This document shows positions 3,962-62,219 of a stretch of 64,000 nt of DNA, piece after piece. The stretch is from a virus (taxonomy: Duplodnaviria > Caudoviricetes). Position numbers and translations under genes: made by a program. The notes beneath the pieces were generated by a model. It saw only the letters and a list, made by a program, of their open reading frames with translations. It made no database searches and had not been told where the DNA came from. The DNA lies in the IMG/VR virus record IMGVR_UViG_3300033075_000428, positions 1 through 64,000 of that record; one strand, written 5' to 3'. How positions within the stretch are numbered: the first letter of the stretch is position 1; the number at the start of each line of letters is the position of its first letter.

Positions 3962-5380
3962 TTAGCTATAGTTCGTGATGGTGCCCTTTACGTACATGTA
4001 TGGGTTGATCATCTTCTGACCACCAGACGTGTACAGACCACGACGACCAATGAAGTCATCCAGAACAACTGGAGGATTCGTCGTGTAAAGAGGACGGTAA
4101 GGAGCCCAGACATATCCAGCATACAGGTAGCTGTTACCCTTGTAACCAACGCAGAACGTGTTTGCGGAGTAGTTCGGATTCTTTACAATCAAGAAGCGAC
4201 CAGACAACGTGCCAGCTACATATGGACCGCTGAACGAGCCATTTGCTTCGACGCCATTCGACTCAAAGCGAGTCATACCTTCGATGATCGATGCTACGTT
4301 CGTACCAGCGATACAGAAGTTACCCGACACCATGCGCGTTGCTTGATAAATCAAGTTCTGTGCACGTGTGAGAGTGTGAATGAACGAGTCATAGTGCTCT
4401 TGCTTCGACACACCGAGTGGCAGTGTGCAGTCGAAGTTAACGATACCACCTTGTGCCTGATTGTACAGGTTAGCCATGATGTTCGAGTCGATTTCAGCAC
4501 GAATGATCGATGCTGTTGCGGCCACGAGTTCATCATCTGCATTGATGTTGTGTGCTTGTTGTAAGTCCCAAGCAGCATCAAGCGTGTACAGAGCACGGAG
4601 CTTGTAAGGACGAGCCGTTACAGTGGACTGGTCAAGGTCAATATCAACTTCGCCAATCAGCGAAGGATTTTGCTCCATGTCATACTCATACGTCGCCGTG
4701 ATGGGCGTGTTGTTCGTAGGAGCGGCAGAGAACGTGACCGAAACTGCACCAGAGGTGTAGTTGATAGTACCAGCAGAGATACCAGTACCCGAAAGAGTAC
4801 CAGAACCATTGTCGGTAGCCGTAACCGAACCAGTTGTGATGGAGAACGTTCCTGGCTTAACAGGAATGTACGACAGTGTTGGGGTGAACACCGTTGTTAC
4901 GCCATCGCCAGTACCAGCAGATTCTTCTTCAACAATCTCCGAAGAGTAGTTGTTCGAAGTTGGAGCGAAACCAGTGTTCGCGCCAATTGCTGTGCTATCC
5001 TTAGCAATCTTGCCCTTCGTGCGACCATAACGGAAGTTAAGGAAGAACACTTCGCCAGACTTCATCTTGAGCGGTTGAACGCTCACGATTTGGTCAGCAA
5101 CAAGGTTTGGCAAAACAGCCGCTACAAGCTTGTAGCCATAGTCAACAAACGAACCTGCATTGATTGCGCGGGTCGTTTCATCCATCGAGTTCAACCACTC
5201 GGTGGTATTGTGAAGGGAACGTGCAGTAGTAGCAATGATGTTTTCGCTCAATGCCTTACCGCCACGCTTTTCCTTCATCGCCGCTTTCATTGGATCCAAG
5301 TACTTCTTGTACTTTTCAGCCAATACCAAGCTCTCGCTTAGCTCTTGACGGCTTCTTTGCTCTAACAGTTGGTCTCTCAT
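3962..5380 (-). CDS. gp23: Major capsid protein, T4 gp23-like, with beta-rich insertion
   Basis: PNLVADQIVSVQPL, TVTARPYKLRALYT, DLQQAH, AEID and AGYVWAPY motifs of the gp23 family. Confidence 0.93.
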   Translation of the reverse strand: MRDQLLEQRSRQELSESLVLAEKYKKYLDPMKAAMKEKRGGKALSENIIATTARSLHNTTEWLNSMDETTRAINAGSFVDYGYKLVAAVLPNLVADQIVSVQPLKMKSGEVFFLNFRYGRTKGKIAKDSTAIGANTGFAPTSNNYSSEIVEEESAGTGDGVTTVFTPTLSYIPVKPGTFSITTGSVTATDNGSGTLSGTGISAGTINYTSGAVSVTFSAAPTNNTPITATYEYDMEQNPSLIGEVDIDLDQSTVTARPYKLRALYTLDAAWDLQQAHNINADDELVAATASIIRAEIDSNIMANLYNQAQGGIVNFDCTLPLGVSKQEHYDSFIHTLTRAQNLIYQATRMVSGNFCIAGTNVASIIEGMTRFESNGVEANGSFSGPYVAGTLSGRFLIVKNPNYSANTFCVGYKGNSYLYAGYVWAPYRPLYTTNPPVVLDDFIGRRGLYTSGGQKMINPYMYVKGTITNYS

Positions 5381-19708: not shown

Positions 19709-19730
19709 GACATGCTCTTAGTTTGGTTAG

Positions 19731-19815
19731 TACACCAGAACGGACTCGAACCGTCACGACACTTACGTGTCAGGGGATTTTAAGTCCCCTGCGTCTGCCA
19801 TTTCGCCACTGGTGT
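19731..19815 (-). tRNA. trnL: tRNA-Leu(UAA)
   Basis: ACACCAG/CTGGTGT acceptor, GGGGA-CTTAAAA-TCCCC anticodon arm, long variable arm, GTTCGAGTC T loop; no encoded CCA. Confidence 0.93.
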
Positions 19816-19823
19816 CTTAGACA

Positions 19824-20156
19824 TCAATCGTAGTTGATGACTTGCTCAATGTTAGAAACCATCGTGCCCTCATAAGGTACACCTGGTTCCGTCTTGACAA
19901 GATTGATTTTGGAAGTTACTTCGTCAGTGCTTGTTTCATCACTAAACAAGACTTCAACGTGGTCGAGCGTTCCCTTTGTTCCCTTGCGCCAAGTGAAGTA
20001 CTCCATGGTAATTCCACTTGGAATGTTCAGTGCACGGATTGACTCCGTTACCATTTGCAGAGTGAGCTTCTCCTTGTTCTTGTCGCAGTTGTCCAACAGT
20101 CCGAGAACTGTTGTTGAAAACTCACGTTCAGCCGTATCAATTGGCCTTGCGTCCAT
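19824..20156 (-). CDS. Hypothetical protein between two tRNA-Leu genes
   Basis: 110 aa with AGGAG SD. Confidence 0.7.
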   Translation of the reverse strand: MDARPIDTAEREFSTTVLGLLDNCDKNKEKLTLQMVTESIRALNIPSGITMEYFTWRKGTKGTLDHVEVLFSDETSTDEVTSKINLVKTEPGVPYEGTMVSNIEQVINYD

Positions 20157-20209
20157 GCTGTACTCCTGAAATTATTGAAAGATAGACTCTAGGATAAGAG
20201 TCTAATACG

Positions 20210-20291
20210 TACTCACAGCGAGAGTCGAACTCGCACGGATTTCTCCACTAGCTCCTAAGACTAGCGTGTCTGCCAATTCCACCATGTGAGC
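20210..20291 (-). tRNA. trnL: tRNA-Leu(UAG)
   Basis: GCTCACA/TGTGAGT acceptor, CTAGT-CTTAGGA-GCTAG anticodon arm, variable arm, GTTCGACTC T loop. Confidence 0.93.
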
Positions 20292-20308
20292 TACTTTATT
20301 GAAGGGAG

Positions 20309-20614
20309 TTATGCGCTTGGTGCTGAGAAGGGTGGTTCAGAGTTTTCGTTGCTATCCCTAGAAGCTAGGACACCTTCATGAAACGCTCTAAAGTTGGCTT
20401 CAAATCTATGAAGGAACGCTTTGTATAGTATCTCCTTTATGCGTTCCCCTGACTGAACCAACTTGTACTCACCGTTACCACGGGATACCATTATCGCTTG
20501 CATGCTTTCTGATTCATGAATCAGAACATCCTCTTGTGGTACTGTGACGAGGACGGGATTATTGAATCTGAGAAGGTCTAGATTCAGGACTTCAATTACA
20601 GTATCTGCTTGCAT
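20309..20614 (-). CDS. Hypothetical protein
   Basis: 101 aa ORF between Ro60 and tRNA. Confidence 0.65.
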   Translation of the reverse strand: MQADTVIEVLNLDLLRFNNPVLVTVPQEDVLIHESESMQAIMVSRGNGEYKLVQSGERIKEILYKAFLHRFEANFRAFHEGVLASRDSNENSEPPFSAPSA

Positions 20615-20665
20615 GTTATGCTCAGAGTGTATGTGTTAGAAAATGGAGAGAACGAGTTGGAAAGC

Positions 20666-22096
20666 TTACTGAGCAGATGCGTCATAAGCGGTTTCGAGTT
20701 GCTCAGCTACTTCCAAACCTTCATAGGCACGGATGTAGTCAAGGAACTTCTCTGACCAGCCACTGATTTCAGCTGTCCACACACCCTTGTAGTTAATGCC
20801 CTTTGCGTGTGCAGAAACATCAATAATGTAGTTCCGAGTGCCGAATGGGTTTGGCGTCTTGTTCACACGGTCACAGTCTTGGCTGTCAGAGAACACCAAG
20901 ATGCGGTCGACAGCTTCACCGTTCAAATCCTTCTTGATGTACTCAAGTGCTTGACGGGTGAAGATTCCGCCACCACCAAGTTTTCTTGATTTGTTCTCCA
21001 GCAATTCTGCCAATGCAAATCCACGAGTTGGAGTCACACGTTCGGTGTTATGAGTTCCTGCGTGGTCTTTGCCAGCAGTTGCATATACTGTGATGTTCTC
21101 ACATTGTTCACAAGCGAATACAGCCAATGCGATTGCAGCATCTTGCCGTGTCAACTGTGACTTGCTTGAAATTGCAGCACCCATGCTTCCTGAAAGGTCG
21201 ATGACCACCACGGTGTGACCCTTGATTTTCTCAACCGACTGGAACATCTTGAACATTGCTTCCTCAATCTCCCGTGCATATTTTGGTTGTTGCTTGTATG
21301 CAGAGTAGAAGTTCAATGGGAGTAGCCATTGATTGGAAACGTTGCGGAGTGCGTTCTTGATAATAGTACGGCTAACGCCAGCCTTCTCCATGTTGTTCAA
21401 GTTGCGCAACAGTGCCAGACCACCCAACTTGTTCTCGTTGAGCAAGCGAGTCCAAGAAGCTGTCTTGTCCTGTGAAGCAGACAATTCAACTTCCCAAGTG
21501 TCAGGAGTCTCAAGCTTGTTGTCTGCTACACGCTTGAATAGGTCTTCTTGAATCTTGTTCTGTGGCTTTGGGTGCACGAGGAACATGATGTCACGAAGGG
21601 TAACAGTCTTGCCATCGCCACGATACTTCGCCAAAGAGTACTCATTGAACTTCAGGAAGCAATTGGCAAGTGCACGTTTCACGGAAGCTGGCACAGGAGA
21701 TTTCTTGGTGTCACCCCAGTACAAAGCCATGAAGTCTGACATCTGGTCTGGACGCGTAATGATTGCTTCCAACACACGCTGTACATGCTTTTTGTGCTCA
21801 GGGTAGAGAAGCATCTCACGTGCGATGAACAGAGGCATGTGGCGAAGCTTCTGTTGGAGTCGGCATTCAATTGCCAAGTCAGCACAATCCTTTGCGTCAA
21901 CTTTCGGAATCAGTTCCTGAACCTTTTTGGCGTTGGCACTACCCGTGGTATATGCAAGGTCTTCCCACAGTAGGGAAGCCAGCACACAGCGACGAAGTTC
22001 GTCAAGCATAGATTGCTTTGCGGAACCCATCCCACCTGGGAGTGGATTCTCATTGTCAAATCGTTCGTCTTTCTTCTTCGGGTTAAGCTTGGACAT
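20666..22096 (-). CDS. rsr: Ro60/Rsr-family RNA-binding protein (TROVE + vWA)
   Basis: LRHMPL, RPDQM, KFNEYSLAKY, LRDIMFLVHPKP, LETPDTWEVELS, ALLRNLNNM, MIDAS IDLSGSM, VFSDSQ and C-terminal ISGWSE motifs. Confidence 0.93.
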   Translation of the reverse strand: MSKLNPKKKDERFDNENPLPGGMGSAKQSMLDELRRCVLASLLWEDLAYTTGSANAKKVQELIPKVDAKDCADLAIECRLQQKLRHMPLFIAREMLLYPEHKKHVQRVLEAIITRPDQMSDFMALYWGDTKKSPVPASVKRALANCFLKFNEYSLAKYRGDGKTVTLRDIMFLVHPKPQNKIQEDLFKRVADNKLETPDTWEVELSASQDKTASWTRLLNENKLGGLALLRNLNNMEKAGVSRTIIKNALRNVSNQWLLPLNFYSAYKQQPKYAREIEEAMFKMFQSVEKIKGHTVVVIDLSGSMGAAISSKSQLTRQDAAIALAVFACEQCENITVYATAGKDHAGTHNTERVTPTRGFALAELLENKSRKLGGGGIFTRQALEYIKKDLNGEAVDRILVFSDSQDCDRVNKTPNPFGTRNYIIDVSAHAKGINYKGVWTAEISGWSEKFLDYIRAYEGLEVAEQLETAYDASAQ

Positions 22097-59690: not shown

Positions 59691-60335
59691 TTACTTGAAG
59701 ACTTTACTGAGGAAGAACTTTCTGACCAACTGCTCGTCGAGACACTCCATTGTCTTGCGCCAGTTCACGATGTTCGTCAATCTTGGTTCAGCACACGCTG
59801 TACCGTATACCCACATGAACCCTTGAAACGAACGTATCCCATACGAACCTAGTTCAACAAGTTCAAATTCCTTCGACGGTGGAACGTTCACCACAGCACA
59901 GATGTCGTAGCCATTTCCTTCGTCGTTTTCAACAATGTCACAGTCAACGTACCGACGAAAGAATTCCAATGCTGATTTCATCACCAGTTCCAACTCAGCC
60001 ATTGCAGTAAGCTCATTCACTGCAGAAGAAATCAGTTCATTCTTGAGGAAGTACTTCGTGTGCAGGAAGTCGAATGATTCTTTCCGAAAGCAGGGTGTCA
60101 CCGTCTGGAACCGTCCTTGGGGCAAGAACCCTTTGGACTGCAAGTAAAGGAACGACTGTTCACCCGACGCAACTAGGACTTTCCCGTCAGGGTGAACGAG
60201 TTGAAAGTCTTCTCGGTCAGAGGGTTTCGTGATGGCAGAGATTGCCTTCGTAACAGTCCAAGGGCTTTCGATTCTTGTGTACCCAATGTTCGTAAAGAAC
60301 TCAATAGAGTCCTGAATCTTTTGATAGTCAATCAT
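59691..60335 (-). CDS. Stand-alone class II aminoacyl-tRNA-synthetase-like catalytic domain
   Basis: Motif1 GYTRIESP, LVASGEQ, motif2 TPCFRKE...F.K.E, ELGSYG, motif3 GTACAEPR; no anticodon-binding domain. Confidence 0.75.
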   Translation of the reverse strand: MIDYQKIQDSIEFFTNIGYTRIESPWTVTKAISAITKPSDREDFQLVHPDGKVLVASGEQSFLYLQSKGFLPQGRFQTVTPCFRKESFDFLHTKYFLKNELISSAVNELTAMAELELVMKSALEFFRRYVDCDIVENDEGNGYDICAVVNVPPSKEFELVELGSYGIRSFQGFMWVYGTACAEPRLTNIVNWRKTMECLDEQLVRKFFLSKVFK

Positions 60336-61185: not shown

Positions 61186-61239
61186 ATTAGTTGACAGCTA
61201 AGTGCGCGGGTTGGCACCCTTGGAAGAACGAGCAACCAA

Positions 61240-61282
61240 GCGAATACAAAAATCCCCACAGTGCGTTACCAAAGTGGGGATT
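61240..61282 (-). terminator. Intrinsic terminator closing the Y-RNA array
   Basis: AATCCCCAC/GTGGGGATT hairpin then TTTGTATTCGC on minus strand; preceded by a second hairpin at 61294-61319. Confidence 0.7.
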
Positions 61283-61341
61283 GCTGGCTTACAGTAGTGA
61301 TGTCTATACCCATCACTACCACCAGTGAGGCAAAATACAAG

Positions 61342-61468
61342 TTCTAACAGGAACAGTCGCTAACGGAAATTAAGTGCTCTACCAACTGAGCTACAAGCAA
61401 TTGCTCGCTTGACAGGACTTGAACCTGCGACAAAAGGAGAAGTATCCGTTGGCTACACCATGTTAGAA
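61342..61468 (-). ncRNA. Y RNA (YrlA-like) copy 1 with circularly permuted tRNA domain
   Basis: UUCUAACA/UGUUAGAA terminal stem; UGGUGUAG..AUACUUC; T arm GCAGG-UUCAAGU-CCUGU; closed acceptor CAAGC/GCUUG; D arm UAGCUCAGUUGGUAGAGC; 3' CUGUUCCU. Confidence 0.85.
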
Positions 61469-61475
61469 TCGTTGT

Positions 61476-61505
61476 GTTTTCAAACGTACTGAAATCAGTA
61501 CAACA
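61476..61505. repeat. Array spacer copy A (GTACTG/CAGTAC hairpin + TTTGAAAAC on minus strand)
   Basis: 25/30 identical to 61673-61702; four of five differences lie in the loop. Confidence 0.8.
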
Positions 61506-61522
61506 GACACTCAATAAATAAC

Positions 61523-61663
61523 CCTGTAGGAACAGGCGTTGACGGGCTTTTGTGACCACTTGTTTTGCCAGTTAAACTACAAGATTATAGAAATCTTGGA
61601 AGGATTTGAACCTTCAATCAGCGGTTTTTTGTTACGAAGTAACCGTTAACTACACCATACAGG
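61523..61663 (-). ncRNA. Y RNA (YrlA-like) copy 2 with a different permuted tRNA domain
   Basis: CCUGUA/UACAGG terminal stem; same core motifs; T arm GAAGG-UUCAAAU-CCUUC; acceptor CAAGAUU/AAUCUUG; D arm GUUU-AACUGGCA-AAAC; residual stem ACCGC/GUGGU. Confidence 0.85.
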
Positions 61664-61672
61664 TATCATTGA

Positions 61673-61702
61673 GTTTTCAAATGTACTGTTGACAGTACAA
61701 CA
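61673..61702. repeat. Array spacer copy B
   Basis: GTTTTCAAATGTACTG-TTGA-CAGTACAACA. Confidence 0.8.
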
Positions 61703-61718
61703 AGCAGTCAAAAATAAA

Positions 61719-61788
61719 ACCGACAGGAACAGGCGTCTACGGGTTGTGGTTCATAACGTGAAGTAACCGTTGACTACACCATGTCAGT
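61719..61788 (-). ncRNA. Minimal Y-RNA-like copy 3 (no tRNA domain)
   Basis: ACUGACA/UGUCGGU stem; UGGUGUAG-UCAACGG-UUACUUC...CCGUAGA-CGC-CUGUUCCU. Confidence 0.75.
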
Positions 61789-61789
61789 C

Positions 61790-62113
61790 TTACTTGGGGG
61801 TATCCGAGGGACGAATGGTTACGTTGGCAGCGTTGATTGTTACTTCATTCGCTGTTGCCGCAACTCCTGGTACATAGTTTGTACCAGTCAATGTGTCGTT
61901 GTTACTAGTTCCTGAGCTCTTAGTGCCCGTATCACCAGAGGTGATGACGTCAAGTGCCATGAAGTTGAATTCATGCTGTGCAGGATAGTTCTCTTGAAAC
62001 CAGACACAAACACACATACCATTTGGACGGATATCATTCACCGTCATGCTTGGGCTTCCCGTCTTCAGACGGACGATGTCTCCAATTTTCACGCTGTCTG
62101 TTGTAACAAGCAT
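61790..62113 (-). CDS. YodC/DUF2158-like small protein with low-complexity tail
   Basis: KIGDIVRLKTGSPSMTV...CVCVWF...F...AL. Confidence 0.75.
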   Translation of the reverse strand: MLVTTDSVKIGDIVRLKTGSPSMTVNDIRPNGMCVCVWFQENYPAQHEFNFMALDVITSGDTGTKSSGTSNNDTLTGTNYVPGVAATANEVTINAANVTIRPSDTPK

Positions 62114-62144
62114 GTCTCAATCCAAATTTCTGTTTTAAAAATGA

Positions 62145-62219
62145 AAGCGGCTAGGAACAGACGCAAGTAGGTGATTTCGTGCAAATGTGAAGTAACCCAC
62201 CGCTACACCATAGACGCTT
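62145..62219 (-). ncRNA. Minimal Y-RNA-like copy 4 (no tRNA domain)
   Basis: AAGCGUCUA/UAGCCGCUU stem; UGGUGUAG-CGGUGGG-UUACUUC...CCUACUUG-CGU-CUGUUCCU. Confidence 0.75.

What the first reader, a model, noticed from the sequence alone, without database searches (positions are those of the whole stretch)
61342..62219. Array of four phage-encoded Y-RNA-like ncRNAs with a shared core stem
Seen: four minus-strand units (61342-61468, 61523-61663, 61719-61788, 62145-62219) share the scaffold [terminal stem]-UGGUGUAG-[7-nt helix]-(A/U)UACUUC-[variable domain]-[helix partner]-CGN-CUGUUCCU-[terminal stem]. The terminal helices differ almost entirely in sequence yet pair in every copy. The upper helix also covaries (CCAACGG/CCGUUAG vs CGGUGGG/CCUACUUG). 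This pattern indicates selection on RNA structure. A terminator closes the array at 61240-61282. Established: bacterial Y RNAs bind Ro60/Rsr through a terminal bulged helix with a GNCGAAN0-1G-type 5' strand, and the YrlA class has a T-acceptor-D permuted tRNA domain. Inference: GGUGUAG/CUGUUCC is this phage's variant Ro-binding helix, and the array is a polycistronic set of Ro60 adaptors.
Basis: partly seen in the sequence, partly recalled or inferred. Interest (0 to 1): 0.92.

Follow-up and report, generated by a model that had tools for sequence, protein, structure and literature searches.

The report
Phage Y-RNA array with new handle
This 190-kb phage carries four small structured RNAs that are very probably partner RNAs (Y RNAs) of its Ro60 ring protein; they belong to a large family, apparently not described in print, found beside Ro60 genes in many phages and some bacteria.

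Summary
Exactly four minus-strand units (61341-61469, 61520-61666, 61717-61790, 62145-62219) share one scaffold. It runs stem1, bulged U, GG:CC, an internal loop (5' UGUA, 3' G-N-Y-UGUU), an 8-bp stem2, UUACUUC, a payload, and back. Units 1 and 2 carry a permuted tRNA-like payload (T arm, closed acceptor hairpin, D arm). Units 3 and 4 carry a small hairpin.

The scaffold is not peculiar to this phage. A covariance model found it in 54 of 116 viral loci picked up by a 15-base pattern. Of those 54, 48 have a Ro60/TROVE gene on the same strand, usually directly downstream. None of the 62 chance-pattern loci does (Fisher p 2e-26). Both stems covary strongly. Caulobacter phage CcrColossus, Xanthomonas phage Olaya, Rhizobium phage RHph_TM30 and crAss001 carry such arrays.

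Rfam YrlA matches only below threshold (41.6 bits against a cut-off of 69), through the tRNA-like part. The published GNCGAA motif is absent.

In this phage the array lies 39 kb from the only Ro60 gene, which argues for RNAs acting in trans. Binding and expression are untested. The conserved loop does not behave as a Watson-Crick helix.

Verdict: a real new variant of a known kind (Ro60/Y-RNA systems). First-reader notes of this scan record the same handle on other DNA.

The parts
62145..62219 (-). Unit 4, short form: stem1 AAGCGUCUA/UAGCCGCUU, U-GGUGUAG, stem2 CGGUGGG/CCUAC(U)U, UUACUUC, small payload, GCG-U-CUGUUCC
   Evidence: R1 42.4 bits, E 1e-8, not in the training set. Fold.
61790..62113 (-). 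107-aa ORF (DUF2158 / phrog_3261) lying between unit 4 and unit 3. Context only, not a recurrent part of the system.
   Evidence: Pfam PF09926, 36.7 bits; phrog_3261. No homologue near arrays in the other loci.
61717..61790 (-). Unit 3, short form. It starts at the stop codon of the DUF2158 ORF. Payload is a UUCA...UGAA hairpin.
   Evidence: R1 53.2 bits, E 2e-11, not in the training set. Fold.
61673..61703 (-). Conserved spacer element TTGTTGTACTG-N4-CAGTAC-A-TTTGAAAAC (7-bp hairpin) between units 3 and 2. Possible processing site or promoter; function unknown.
   Evidence: Only two copies in the whole genome. Fold.
61520..61666 (-). Unit 2, long form: handle plus permuted tRNA-like payload (T arm GAAGGUUCAAAUCCUUC, closed acceptor hairpin, D arm)
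   Evidence: R1 106.4 bits. Rfam YrlA 26.5 bits over 61561-61620.
61476..61506 (-). Second copy of the spacer hairpin element, between units 2 and 1
   Evidence: It is part of a 115-nt direct repeat with 197-nt spacing.
61341..61469 (-). Unit 1, long form: stem1 UUCUAACA/UGUUAGAA, handle, T arm, closed acceptor hairpin, D arm GUAGCUCAGUUGGUAGAGC
   Evidence: R1 113.1 bits. Rfam YrlA 41.6 bits, E 2e-7, gathering cut-off 69.
61246..61282 (-). Terminator-like hairpin AAUCCCCAC...GUGGGGAUU followed by UUUUGUAUU, preceded by a 10-bp hairpin at about 61293-61320
   Evidence: Fold of 61236-61345: -38.4 kcal/mol, z -3.74
20666..22096 (-). The phage's only Ro60 gene (TROVE + vWA, 476 aa), the presumed protein partner, 39 kb away on the same strand. 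It is followed by tRNA-Leu(UAG) and tRNA-Leu(UAA).
   Evidence: Pfam TROVE 62.9 bits and VWA_2. Single TROVE locus in the genome. Full-length match to Thermus phage phiLo Ro60 structures 9KOP/9L5Y, E 1e-15. tRNAs.

Best explanation
The four units are genes for small trans-acting RNAs of the Y-RNA type. Each consists of a constant 'handle' and a variable payload held at its tip. The handle is stem1, a bulged U, two G-C pairs, a sequence-conserved asymmetric internal loop (5' UGUA, 3' G-N-Y-UGUU), an 8-bp stem2 and UUAC. I infer that the handle is the docking site for the phage's Ro60 ring protein (20666-22096). It would correspond to the bulged conserved helix of animal Y RNAs and to the GNCGAAN0-1G region of bacterial YrlA. 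The payload is either a sealed, anticodon-less, permuted tRNA mimic (units 1 and 2, YrlA-like) or a short hairpin (units 3 and 4, YrlB-like). I infer that it decides what else the particle contacts, such as tRNA-handling enzymes or host exoribonucleases like PNPase, as in the published Rsr/Y RNA/PNPase and phiLo complexes. What is shown: the four units, the covarying structure, the family-wide genomic link with Ro60, and homology of the tRNA-like module to YrlA. What is inferred: direct Ro60 binding to the handle, expression and processing of the units, and the role of the payloads.
For: (1) The pattern occurs 4 times against 0.07 expected, and the genome holds only four units and one TROVE gene. 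(2) In a MAFFT alignment of 28 long forms from 24 viral loci plus the window, RNAalifold predicts 33 pairs, 26 of them with compensatory changes. 92.6% of cells are paired against 66% in shuffles and 38-48% with slid partners. The covariation score is 0.705 against 0.19, reached by 0 of 500 shuffles. Short forms aligned independently give 84% against 62.5%, covariation 0.596 against 0.20, 0 of 500. (3) Link with Ro60: 48 of 54 loci with an R1 hit have a Ro60-like ORF on the same strand, against 0 of 62 loci with only a chance pattern match (Fisher p 2e-26). All 10 tested neighbouring ORFs are Pfam TROVE. Three of five 'RNA only' contigs have TROVE elsewhere on the contig. (4) Cultured phages show the same arrangement. 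CcrColossus has 9 units upstream of its TROVE gene, Olaya 4 and RHph_TM30 5. crAss001 has units downstream of its Ro60 (gp96), which at 49% identity is the closest relative of the window's Ro60. (5) Rfam YrlA matches units 1 and 2 through the T, acceptor and D module (41.6 and 26.5 bits). The architecture of helix, asymmetric loop, helix and YUAY parallels the Rfam YrlA consensus. (6) The handle is constant while payloads differ, as expected for a protein-docking module. (7) The array is 39 kb from Ro60, so a role in cis on the Ro60 mRNA is excluded here.
Against: There is no expression or binding evidence of any kind. The published Ro-recognition motif GNCGAAN0-1G (PMC4201824) is absent. Rfam YrlA stays below its gathering score in the window and in every relative tested. 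Unlike most relatives, the array is not next to the Ro60 gene. Single-sequence folding energies of units 3 and 4 are unremarkable (z -0.8 and -0.9), so the case rests on comparative data. The association shows a functional link with Ro60 but not which part of the RNA is bound, nor that the RNA is a cofactor rather than a substrate.
Confidence: 0.8

Rival explanations
1. The RNAs are functionally tied to Ro60 but are not its stable cofactors. The handle would be recognised by another factor, such as a host or phage tRNA-processing enzyme, an exoribonuclease or a defence nuclease. The RNAs would act as decoys or substrates, for example tRNA look-alikes that absorb host anticodon nucleases, with Ro60 acting on them only secondarily.
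For: The tRNA-like payloads and the neighbourhood of tRNA genes fit this. An aaRS-like ORF lies 1 kb downstream of the array. The association test shows linkage, not contact. The handle lacks the published Ro motif (PMC4201824).
Against: The constant part is the handle, not the tRNA mimic. Short forms lack any tRNA-like part yet keep the handle and the Ro60 linkage. No second protein family recurs with the arrays in the loci examined: DUF2158 does not, and neighbours other than Ro60 vary.
Confidence: 0.1
2. The units are cis-acting leader or processing elements of the Ro60 transcript, for example autoregulatory Ro60 binding sites or RNA-stability elements, and not independent RNAs.
For: In most relatives the array lies directly upstream of Ro60 on the same strand, often within a few nucleotides of its reading frame.
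Against: In this phage the array is 39 kb from Ro60, with dozens of genes between. In other contigs it lies downstream of Ro60 or elsewhere. One to nine tandem copies with different payloads, each closed by its own terminal stem and followed by a U-rich tail, look like separate RNA genes.
Confidence: 0.06
3. The units are decayed or rearranged tRNA genes, or repeat debris, with no function of their own.
For: tRNA finders sometimes call parts of such units as tRNA: the annotated 'tRNA-Gln' in CcrColossus, and ARAGORN 'tRNA-Asn' in Olaya. Rfam tRNA gives 17 bits on unit 2.
Against: The element order is permuted and there is no anticodon arm. ARAGORN calls nothing in the array. There are compensatory changes in 26 of 33 pairs. 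Handle sequence is strictly conserved across phages of unrelated hosts. The linkage to Ro60 is tight.
Confidence: 0.02

Closest known systems
Bacterial and phage YrlA / YrlB Y RNAs with Rsr (Ro60): Salmonella, Mycobacterium smegmatis, 22 phages (Chen et al. 2014, PMC4201824; Rfam RF02553)
   Same: Both have a long form with a permuted tRNA-like domain (variable arm, T arm, closed acceptor stem, D arm) plus short companions without it. Both have paired 5' and 3' ends, an asymmetric internal loop between two helices, and YUAY (here UUAC) leading into the variable arm. Both are encoded with Ro60 on the same strand, in several copies.
   Different: The handle sequence differs: U-GGUGUAG ... CG-N-YUGUUCC replaces GNCGAAN0-1G. 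Rfam RF02553 reaches only 26-50 bits against a cut-off of 69, through the tRNA-like part. Arrays are usually upstream of Ro60 and hold up to nine units. In this phage the array is 39 kb from Ro60, whereas the paper found nearly all best matches within 4 kb. The partner Ro60 proteins are shorter (about 435-480 aa). By sequence the window's Ro60 matched only the phage phiLo structures in the PDB search, E 0.01 or less.
Thermus phage phiLo Ro60 with Yrl1 and Yrl2 (PMC12135203; PDB 9KOP, 9L5Y)
   Same: A phage Ro60 with phage-encoded Y-like RNAs. It is the only solved relative of the window's Ro60 found by sequence (E 1e-15). The proposed function is capture of host PNPase.
   Different: The published Yrl1 and Yrl2 were chosen upstream of the gene by a CGAA motif. 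Model R1 instead finds two weak handle-type RNAs downstream of phiLo Ro60 (25.4 and 19.4 bits), with UACUUC and ACUUUCC. The window's handle has no CGAA.
Animal Y RNAs bound by Ro60 (Stein et al. 2005 and Green et al. 1998, as cited in PMC4201824; details partly from my own knowledge)
   Same: The general plan matches: 5' and 3' ends pair, a conserved helix is interrupted by a bulged nucleotide and extra bases on the opposite strand, the interior is variable, and the 3' tail is U-rich.
   Different: No sequence or covariance-model similarity: Rfam Y_RNA gave no match even at E 10. Animal Y RNAs have no tRNA-like payload. They are single RNA polymerase III genes, not bacterial-type arrays.

Membership tests
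YrlA (Rfam RF02553; Chen et al. 2014) | Score at or above the Rfam gathering cut-off (69 bits) | tested here: not met
   Unit 1 scores 41.6 bits and unit 2 scores 26.5 bits. Units 3 and 4 give no match. Relatives in CcrColossus, Olaya and RHph_TM30 score 36-50 bits.
YrlA (Rfam RF02553; Chen et al. 2014) | tRNA-like domain in the order variable arm, T arm, closed acceptor stem, D arm | tested here: met
   Units 1 and 2 meet it: GGUUCAAGUCC and GGUUCAAAUCC T loops, 7-bp closed hairpins, and D arm GUAGCUCAGUUGGUAGAGC. These helices covary in the family. Units 3 and 4 lack it and are YrlB-like.
YrlA (Rfam RF02553; Chen et al. 2014) | GNCGAAN0-1G motif near the 5' end | tested here: not met
   The corresponding position reads U-GGUGUAG in all four units and in over 90% of 117 family members.
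YrlA (Rfam RF02553; Chen et al. 2014) | Encoded within about 4 kb of a Ro60 orthologue, on the same strand | tested here: not met
   The strand is the same but the distance is 39 kb. The feature is met by the family at large: 48 of 54 loci.
Y RNA in the functional sense (Ro60-bound ncRNA) | Physical association with Ro60 | not testable with these tools
   Only genomic co-occurrence is available. No run on record as RNA holds the stretch.
Y RNA in the functional sense (Ro60-bound ncRNA) | Expressed as a discrete small RNA | not testable with these tools
   The listed runs hold the stretch only as assembled contigs and none is on record as RNA. The U-rich tail after stem1 is modestly enriched across the family.
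Ro60 / TROVE protein (the partner, 20666-22096) | TROVE domain followed by a vWA domain with a MIDAS motif | tested here: met
   Pfam TROVE 62.9 bits and VWA_2 24.3 bits. DLSGSM is present in the translation. Full-length match to the phiLo Ro60 structure.
tRNA genes | Cloverleaf with an anticodon arm, detected by ARAGORN or Rfam tRNA above cut-off | tested here: not met
   ARAGORN finds no tRNA in 61.3-62.3 kb. Rfam tRNA gives 17.4 bits against a cut-off of 29.

The most novel reading that the evidence does not exclude
The handle defines a second major class of prokaryotic Ro60 partner RNAs, one that Rfam and the searchable literature do not capture. In this class one docking module is combined with interchangeable payloads (sealed tRNA mimics, small hairpins and others) in arrays of up to nine. 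A single phage Ro60 would thereby be programmed to engage several different host RNA-handling or defence factors. The unlinked array in this phage would then mean that the RNAs are regulated separately from the protein.
Probability: 0.3. Interest if true: 0.75.

Novelty: new variant of a known kind. Interest (0 to 1): 0.58.

Why it matters
Ro60/Y-RNA particles are conserved from bacteria to humans, where Ro60 is a lupus and Sjögren autoantigen. How bacterial and phage Ro60 recognise their RNAs, and what the tRNA-like parts are for, remains open.

This finding gives a sharply defined, strongly conserved handle with hundreds of natural variants. Many natural variants of stem sequence and payload are therefore already available for comparison. 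The handle occurs in tractable systems: CcrColossus on Caulobacter, crAss001 on Bacteroides, and Xanthomonas and Rhizobium phages. The recognition rule and the role of the payloads are therefore directly testable.

It also suggests that phage genome annotation misses these RNA genes or mis-calls them as tRNAs. The RNAs studied with the only solved phage Ro60 (phiLo) may not be the conserved partners.

For this phage specifically, the array is separated from the Ro60 gene. That is natural evidence that the RNAs act in trans.

Tried and rejected
1. Rfam at gathering thresholds on the window and on 12 related loci gave only tRNAs.
2. blastn of the array against 50,697 phage records gave no match.
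3. The search for related loci with the upstream 221-aa ORF found no relatives. Orthologous arrays in close kin of this phage could therefore not be compared.
4. Sequencing runs: no RNA holder is listed. Three runs hold the stretch as contigs, one probably being the source. This says nothing on expression. One contig from a groundwater metagenome differs at 61733, the variable N of CG-N.
5. Sigma-70 promoter scan: nothing on the minus strand of the array.
6. I considered that TACATTTG and TACGTTTG in the spacers are Bacteroidota-type -7 boxes. TAnnTTTG is not enriched in non-coding DNA of this genome (11 of 107 sites against 12% non-coding), so I dropped the idea.
7. DUF2158 as a system component: no homologue near the other arrays.
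8. RtcB is absent from the genome. There is only a borderline ligase-family match at 127.8 kb.
9. Reading GGUGUAG/CUGUUCC as a Watson-Crick helix is rejected for the four middle positions.
10. Host identification: the major capsid protein is T4-like, with at most 38% identity to any cultured phage. A 660-aa ORF has no match.
11. The supplement of Chen et al. 2014 and the 2020 Annual Review are not held. I could not check whether individual handle-type RNAs are listed there.

Full report
**What is there**

The minus strand of 61.2-62.3 kb carries four units with the same plan. The 21-nt pattern GGTGTAG-N5-GG-N-TACTTC matches four times, all on the minus strand. Shuffles give 0.07 matches on average. 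There is no other copy in the 190,353-bp virus genome, which has direct terminal repeats and is rated complete. Each copy is followed by CTGTTCC 48-121 nt downstream.

Single-sequence folds pair the outermost 7-9 nt of every unit although these stems share no sequence. ARAGORN finds no tRNA in the array. At relaxed thresholds Rfam YrlA (RF02553) matches unit 1 (41.6 bits, E 2e-7) and unit 2 (26.5 bits). Both are below the gathering score of 69, and both matches run through the T arm, closed acceptor hairpin and D arm. A 107-aa DUF2158 ORF lies between units 4 and 3. A strong hairpin with a U run at about 61246-61282 closes the array.

**The scaffold is a large family**

About that number is expected by chance from my own rough estimate, so I sorted them. 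Many hits have the complete scaffold with a complementary partner of the 7-nt helix, CG, (Y)UGUUCC and a pairing terminal stem: 62 distinct RNAs, both long and short.

A MAFFT alignment of 28 long forms (A1) gives an RNAalifold consensus of 33 pairs, 26 with compensatory changes.
- On that alignment 92.6% of cells are paired, against 66% in column shuffles and 38-48% with slid partners.
- The covariation score is 0.705 against 0.19, reached by 0 of 500 shuffles.
- An independent MAFFT alignment of 21 short forms, including window units 3 and 4, gives 84% against 62.5%, and 0.596 against 0.20.

The covariance model R1 finds exactly the four units in the window and in the whole genome. Units 3 and 4 were not used in training. 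They score 53.2 and 42.4 bits, with the tRNA-like module skipped as a local end.

**Anatomy of the handle**

Over 117 distinct family members the consensus is as follows. Numbers after a base are its percentage at that position.
- stem1, 7-8 bp and free in sequence
- R9
- U10 (94%)
- G G U G U A G (90-99%, with the fifth base U75/A15)
- N4-C-G-G
- U-U-A-C-U-U-C (U70, then 94-100%)
- payload
- C-C-G-N4
- C-G
- N, then Y
- U-G-U-U-C-C (U76, G74, then 95-98%)
- Y75
- stem1'

R9 and Y75 covary cleanly (G-C 82, A-U 24, C-G 5, U-A 2), which leaves U10 as a conserved bulge. G17 pairs with the C of CG. In contrast, U13, G14, U15 and A16 show no Watson-Crick covariation with U-G-U-U on the other strand. 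For example, A at position 15 goes with G in 17 cases.

In short forms the UUC of UUACUUC starts a small hairpin closed by GAA. In long forms it starts the variable arm. UUAC thus corresponds to the YUAY that Chen et al. describe at the start of the V loop (PMC4201824).

The overall plan parallels the Rfam YrlA consensus printed: helix, asymmetric loop, helix, YUAY, then V, T, acceptor and D. By position, U-GGUGUAG occupies the place of GNCGAAN0-1G.

**Link with Ro60**

The window encodes one TROVE + vWA protein at 20666-22096. It is the only TROVE locus in the genome. It aligns over its full length with the Thermus phage phiLo Ro60 structures 9KOP and 9L5Y (E 1e-15).

In the viral loci, the ORF just downstream of the RNA is TROVE in 10 of 10 tested cases. 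I built an HMM from these proteins and cross-tabulated:

| Loci | With a Ro60-like ORF in the fetched locus | Without |
|---|---|---|
| 54 loci with an R1 hit | 48 (always same strand; array usually just upstream, five times just downstream) | 6 |
| 62 loci with only a chance pattern match | 0 | 62 |

Fisher's exact test gives p = 2e-26. Three of five 'RNA only' contigs that I could search have a TROVE gene elsewhere. In one of them the neighbour of the RNA is a COOH-NH2 ligase. Unlinked arrangements like the window's therefore occur elsewhere.

In bacterial genomes the handle is again mostly beside Ro60-like genes: 22 of 32 handle loci, against 5 of 88 others. The record titles of the scan name contigs from Acidobacteriota, Caulobacter and Sphingomonas, among others.

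**Named phages**

The window's Ro60 is 49% identical to gp96 of crAss001 and its relatives. It is 33-38% identical to proteins of Brevundimonas, Caulobacter, Xanthomonas, Rhizobium and Microcystis phages. R1 results:
- CcrColossus: nine units in the unannotated gap upstream of the TROVE gene.
- Xanthomonas phage Olaya: four units.
- Rhizobium phage RHph_TM30: five units. Its TROVE gene is flanked by tRNA-Leu(UAG) and tRNA-Leu(UAA), the same two tRNA species that follow the window's Ro60.
- crAss001: three weaker units downstream of gp96, some with a variant handle (AGUGUAU ... UUACUUC ... UUGUUCU).

Rfam YrlA stays at 36-50 bits in these phages.

**Arrays and transcription**

Loci hold one to five units within the fetched flanks, and more in CcrColossus. 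Among 92 adjacent pairs the median gap is 7.5 nt, and 52 gaps are 10 nt or less. That leaves no room for separate promoters and implies a common precursor that is processed. T is enriched to 40-45% over the seven bases after stem1, against about 23% further downstream.

In the window the gaps are larger (50, 50 and 354 nt). The two 50-nt spacers share a hairpin element found nowhere else in the genome. Whether this is a promoter, an operator or a processing site is open. No sigma-70-like promoter was found.

**What it most likely does**

A constant handle with variable payloads, obligatory company of Ro60 and a YrlA-type tRNA mimic together point to Ro60-bound Y RNAs. The published functions of such particles are:
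- tethering Ro60 to PNPase for degradation of structured RNA (PMC4201824);
- for phage phiLo, capture of host PNPase (PMC12135203).

I therefore propose that the handle docks on the phage Ro60 and that the payloads select partners. The 39-kb separation excludes a purely cis role on the Ro60 mRNA in this phage. No step of binding or expression has been observed. The genome has no RtcB.

**Comparison and novelty**

Phage Ro60 with Y-like RNAs is published: 22 phages in Chen et al. 2014, with CcrColossus, Bacillus phage G and mycobacteriophages named in PMC12135203, and phiLo itself. A general statement on jumbo phages is in PMC7824862.

I found no description of this handle, of the short and long arrays that share it, or of its spread. 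Motif and keyword searches returned nothing relevant, and no Rfam family covers it. The supplement of the 2014 paper is not held. Some individual RNAs of this class, such as one in CcrColossus, may well be listed there as YrlA.

I rate it a new variant of a known kind. First-reader notes of this scan describe the same handle beside phage Ro60 in other genomes (e1-5690439, e1-5925555). Follow-up agents described other Ro60-array classes.

**Limits**

- The family sample was seeded with an exact pattern, so conservation of the pattern positions is overstated. About half of the 117 members were found by the model only.
- R1 E-values are rough.
- No close relatives of this particular phage were available.

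Noticed in passing
L138:3969-4038 and L138:4160-4243 (Thermus phage phiLo, MH673673.1, just downstream of its Ro60 gene): Two handle-type RNAs (UACUUC ... ACUUUCC with pairing stems; R1 25.4 and 19.4 bits) overlap the annotated CDS phiLo_25. The 2025 structural paper used two other RNAs, upstream of the gene and chosen by a CGAA motif. The conserved partners of phiLo Ro60 may be these downstream RNAs.
   Followed up: partly
L132:3112-3282 (Caulobacter phage CcrColossus) and L134:2748-2889 (Xanthomonas phage Olaya): The annotated 'tRNA-Gln' of CcrColossus (L132 3119-3186) and an ARAGORN 'tRNA-Asn(gtt)' call in Olaya (L134 2752-2822) lie inside Y-like units. The 5' half of these RNAs is evidently mis-called as tRNA. 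The arrays themselves carry no other annotated gene in these records.
   Followed up: partly
window 59691-60335 (-): A 214-aa ORF resembles the catalytic core of a class II aminoacyl-tRNA synthetase (phrog_4806 'histidyl tRNA synthetase', E 1e-35; Pfam tRNA-synt_2 17.7 bits, below cut-off). It lies 1 kb downstream of the array of tRNA-mimicking RNAs.
   Followed up: no
window 19730-22096 (-) and L135 (Rhizobium phage RHph_TM30): In the window, tRNA-Leu(UAG) and tRNA-Leu(UAA) both follow the Ro60 gene. In RHph_TM30 the same two tRNA species flank it, one on each side. The two Ro60 proteins are only about 33% identical, so this is a conserved neighbourhood or a recurrent association.
   Followed up: no
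window 61476-61506 and 61673-61703 (-): A 31-nt element with a 7-bp hairpin (YTGTTGTACTG-N4-CAGTAC-R-TTTGAAAAC) occurs only twice in the genome, in the spacers before units 2 and 1. It is part of a 115-nt tandem duplication. Its function is unknown.
   Followed up: partly
whole genome G000: TTGACA occurs 273 times on both strands. I estimate about 93 for random sequence of this length. It is not concentrated in non-coding DNA, and the cause is not examined.
   Followed up: no
window 3962-5380 (-): The major capsid protein is T4-like (phrog_138). The best cultured relatives are only 38% identical: Listeria phage LIS04 and Bacillus phage SP-15. The host of this phage remains unknown.
   Followed up: partly
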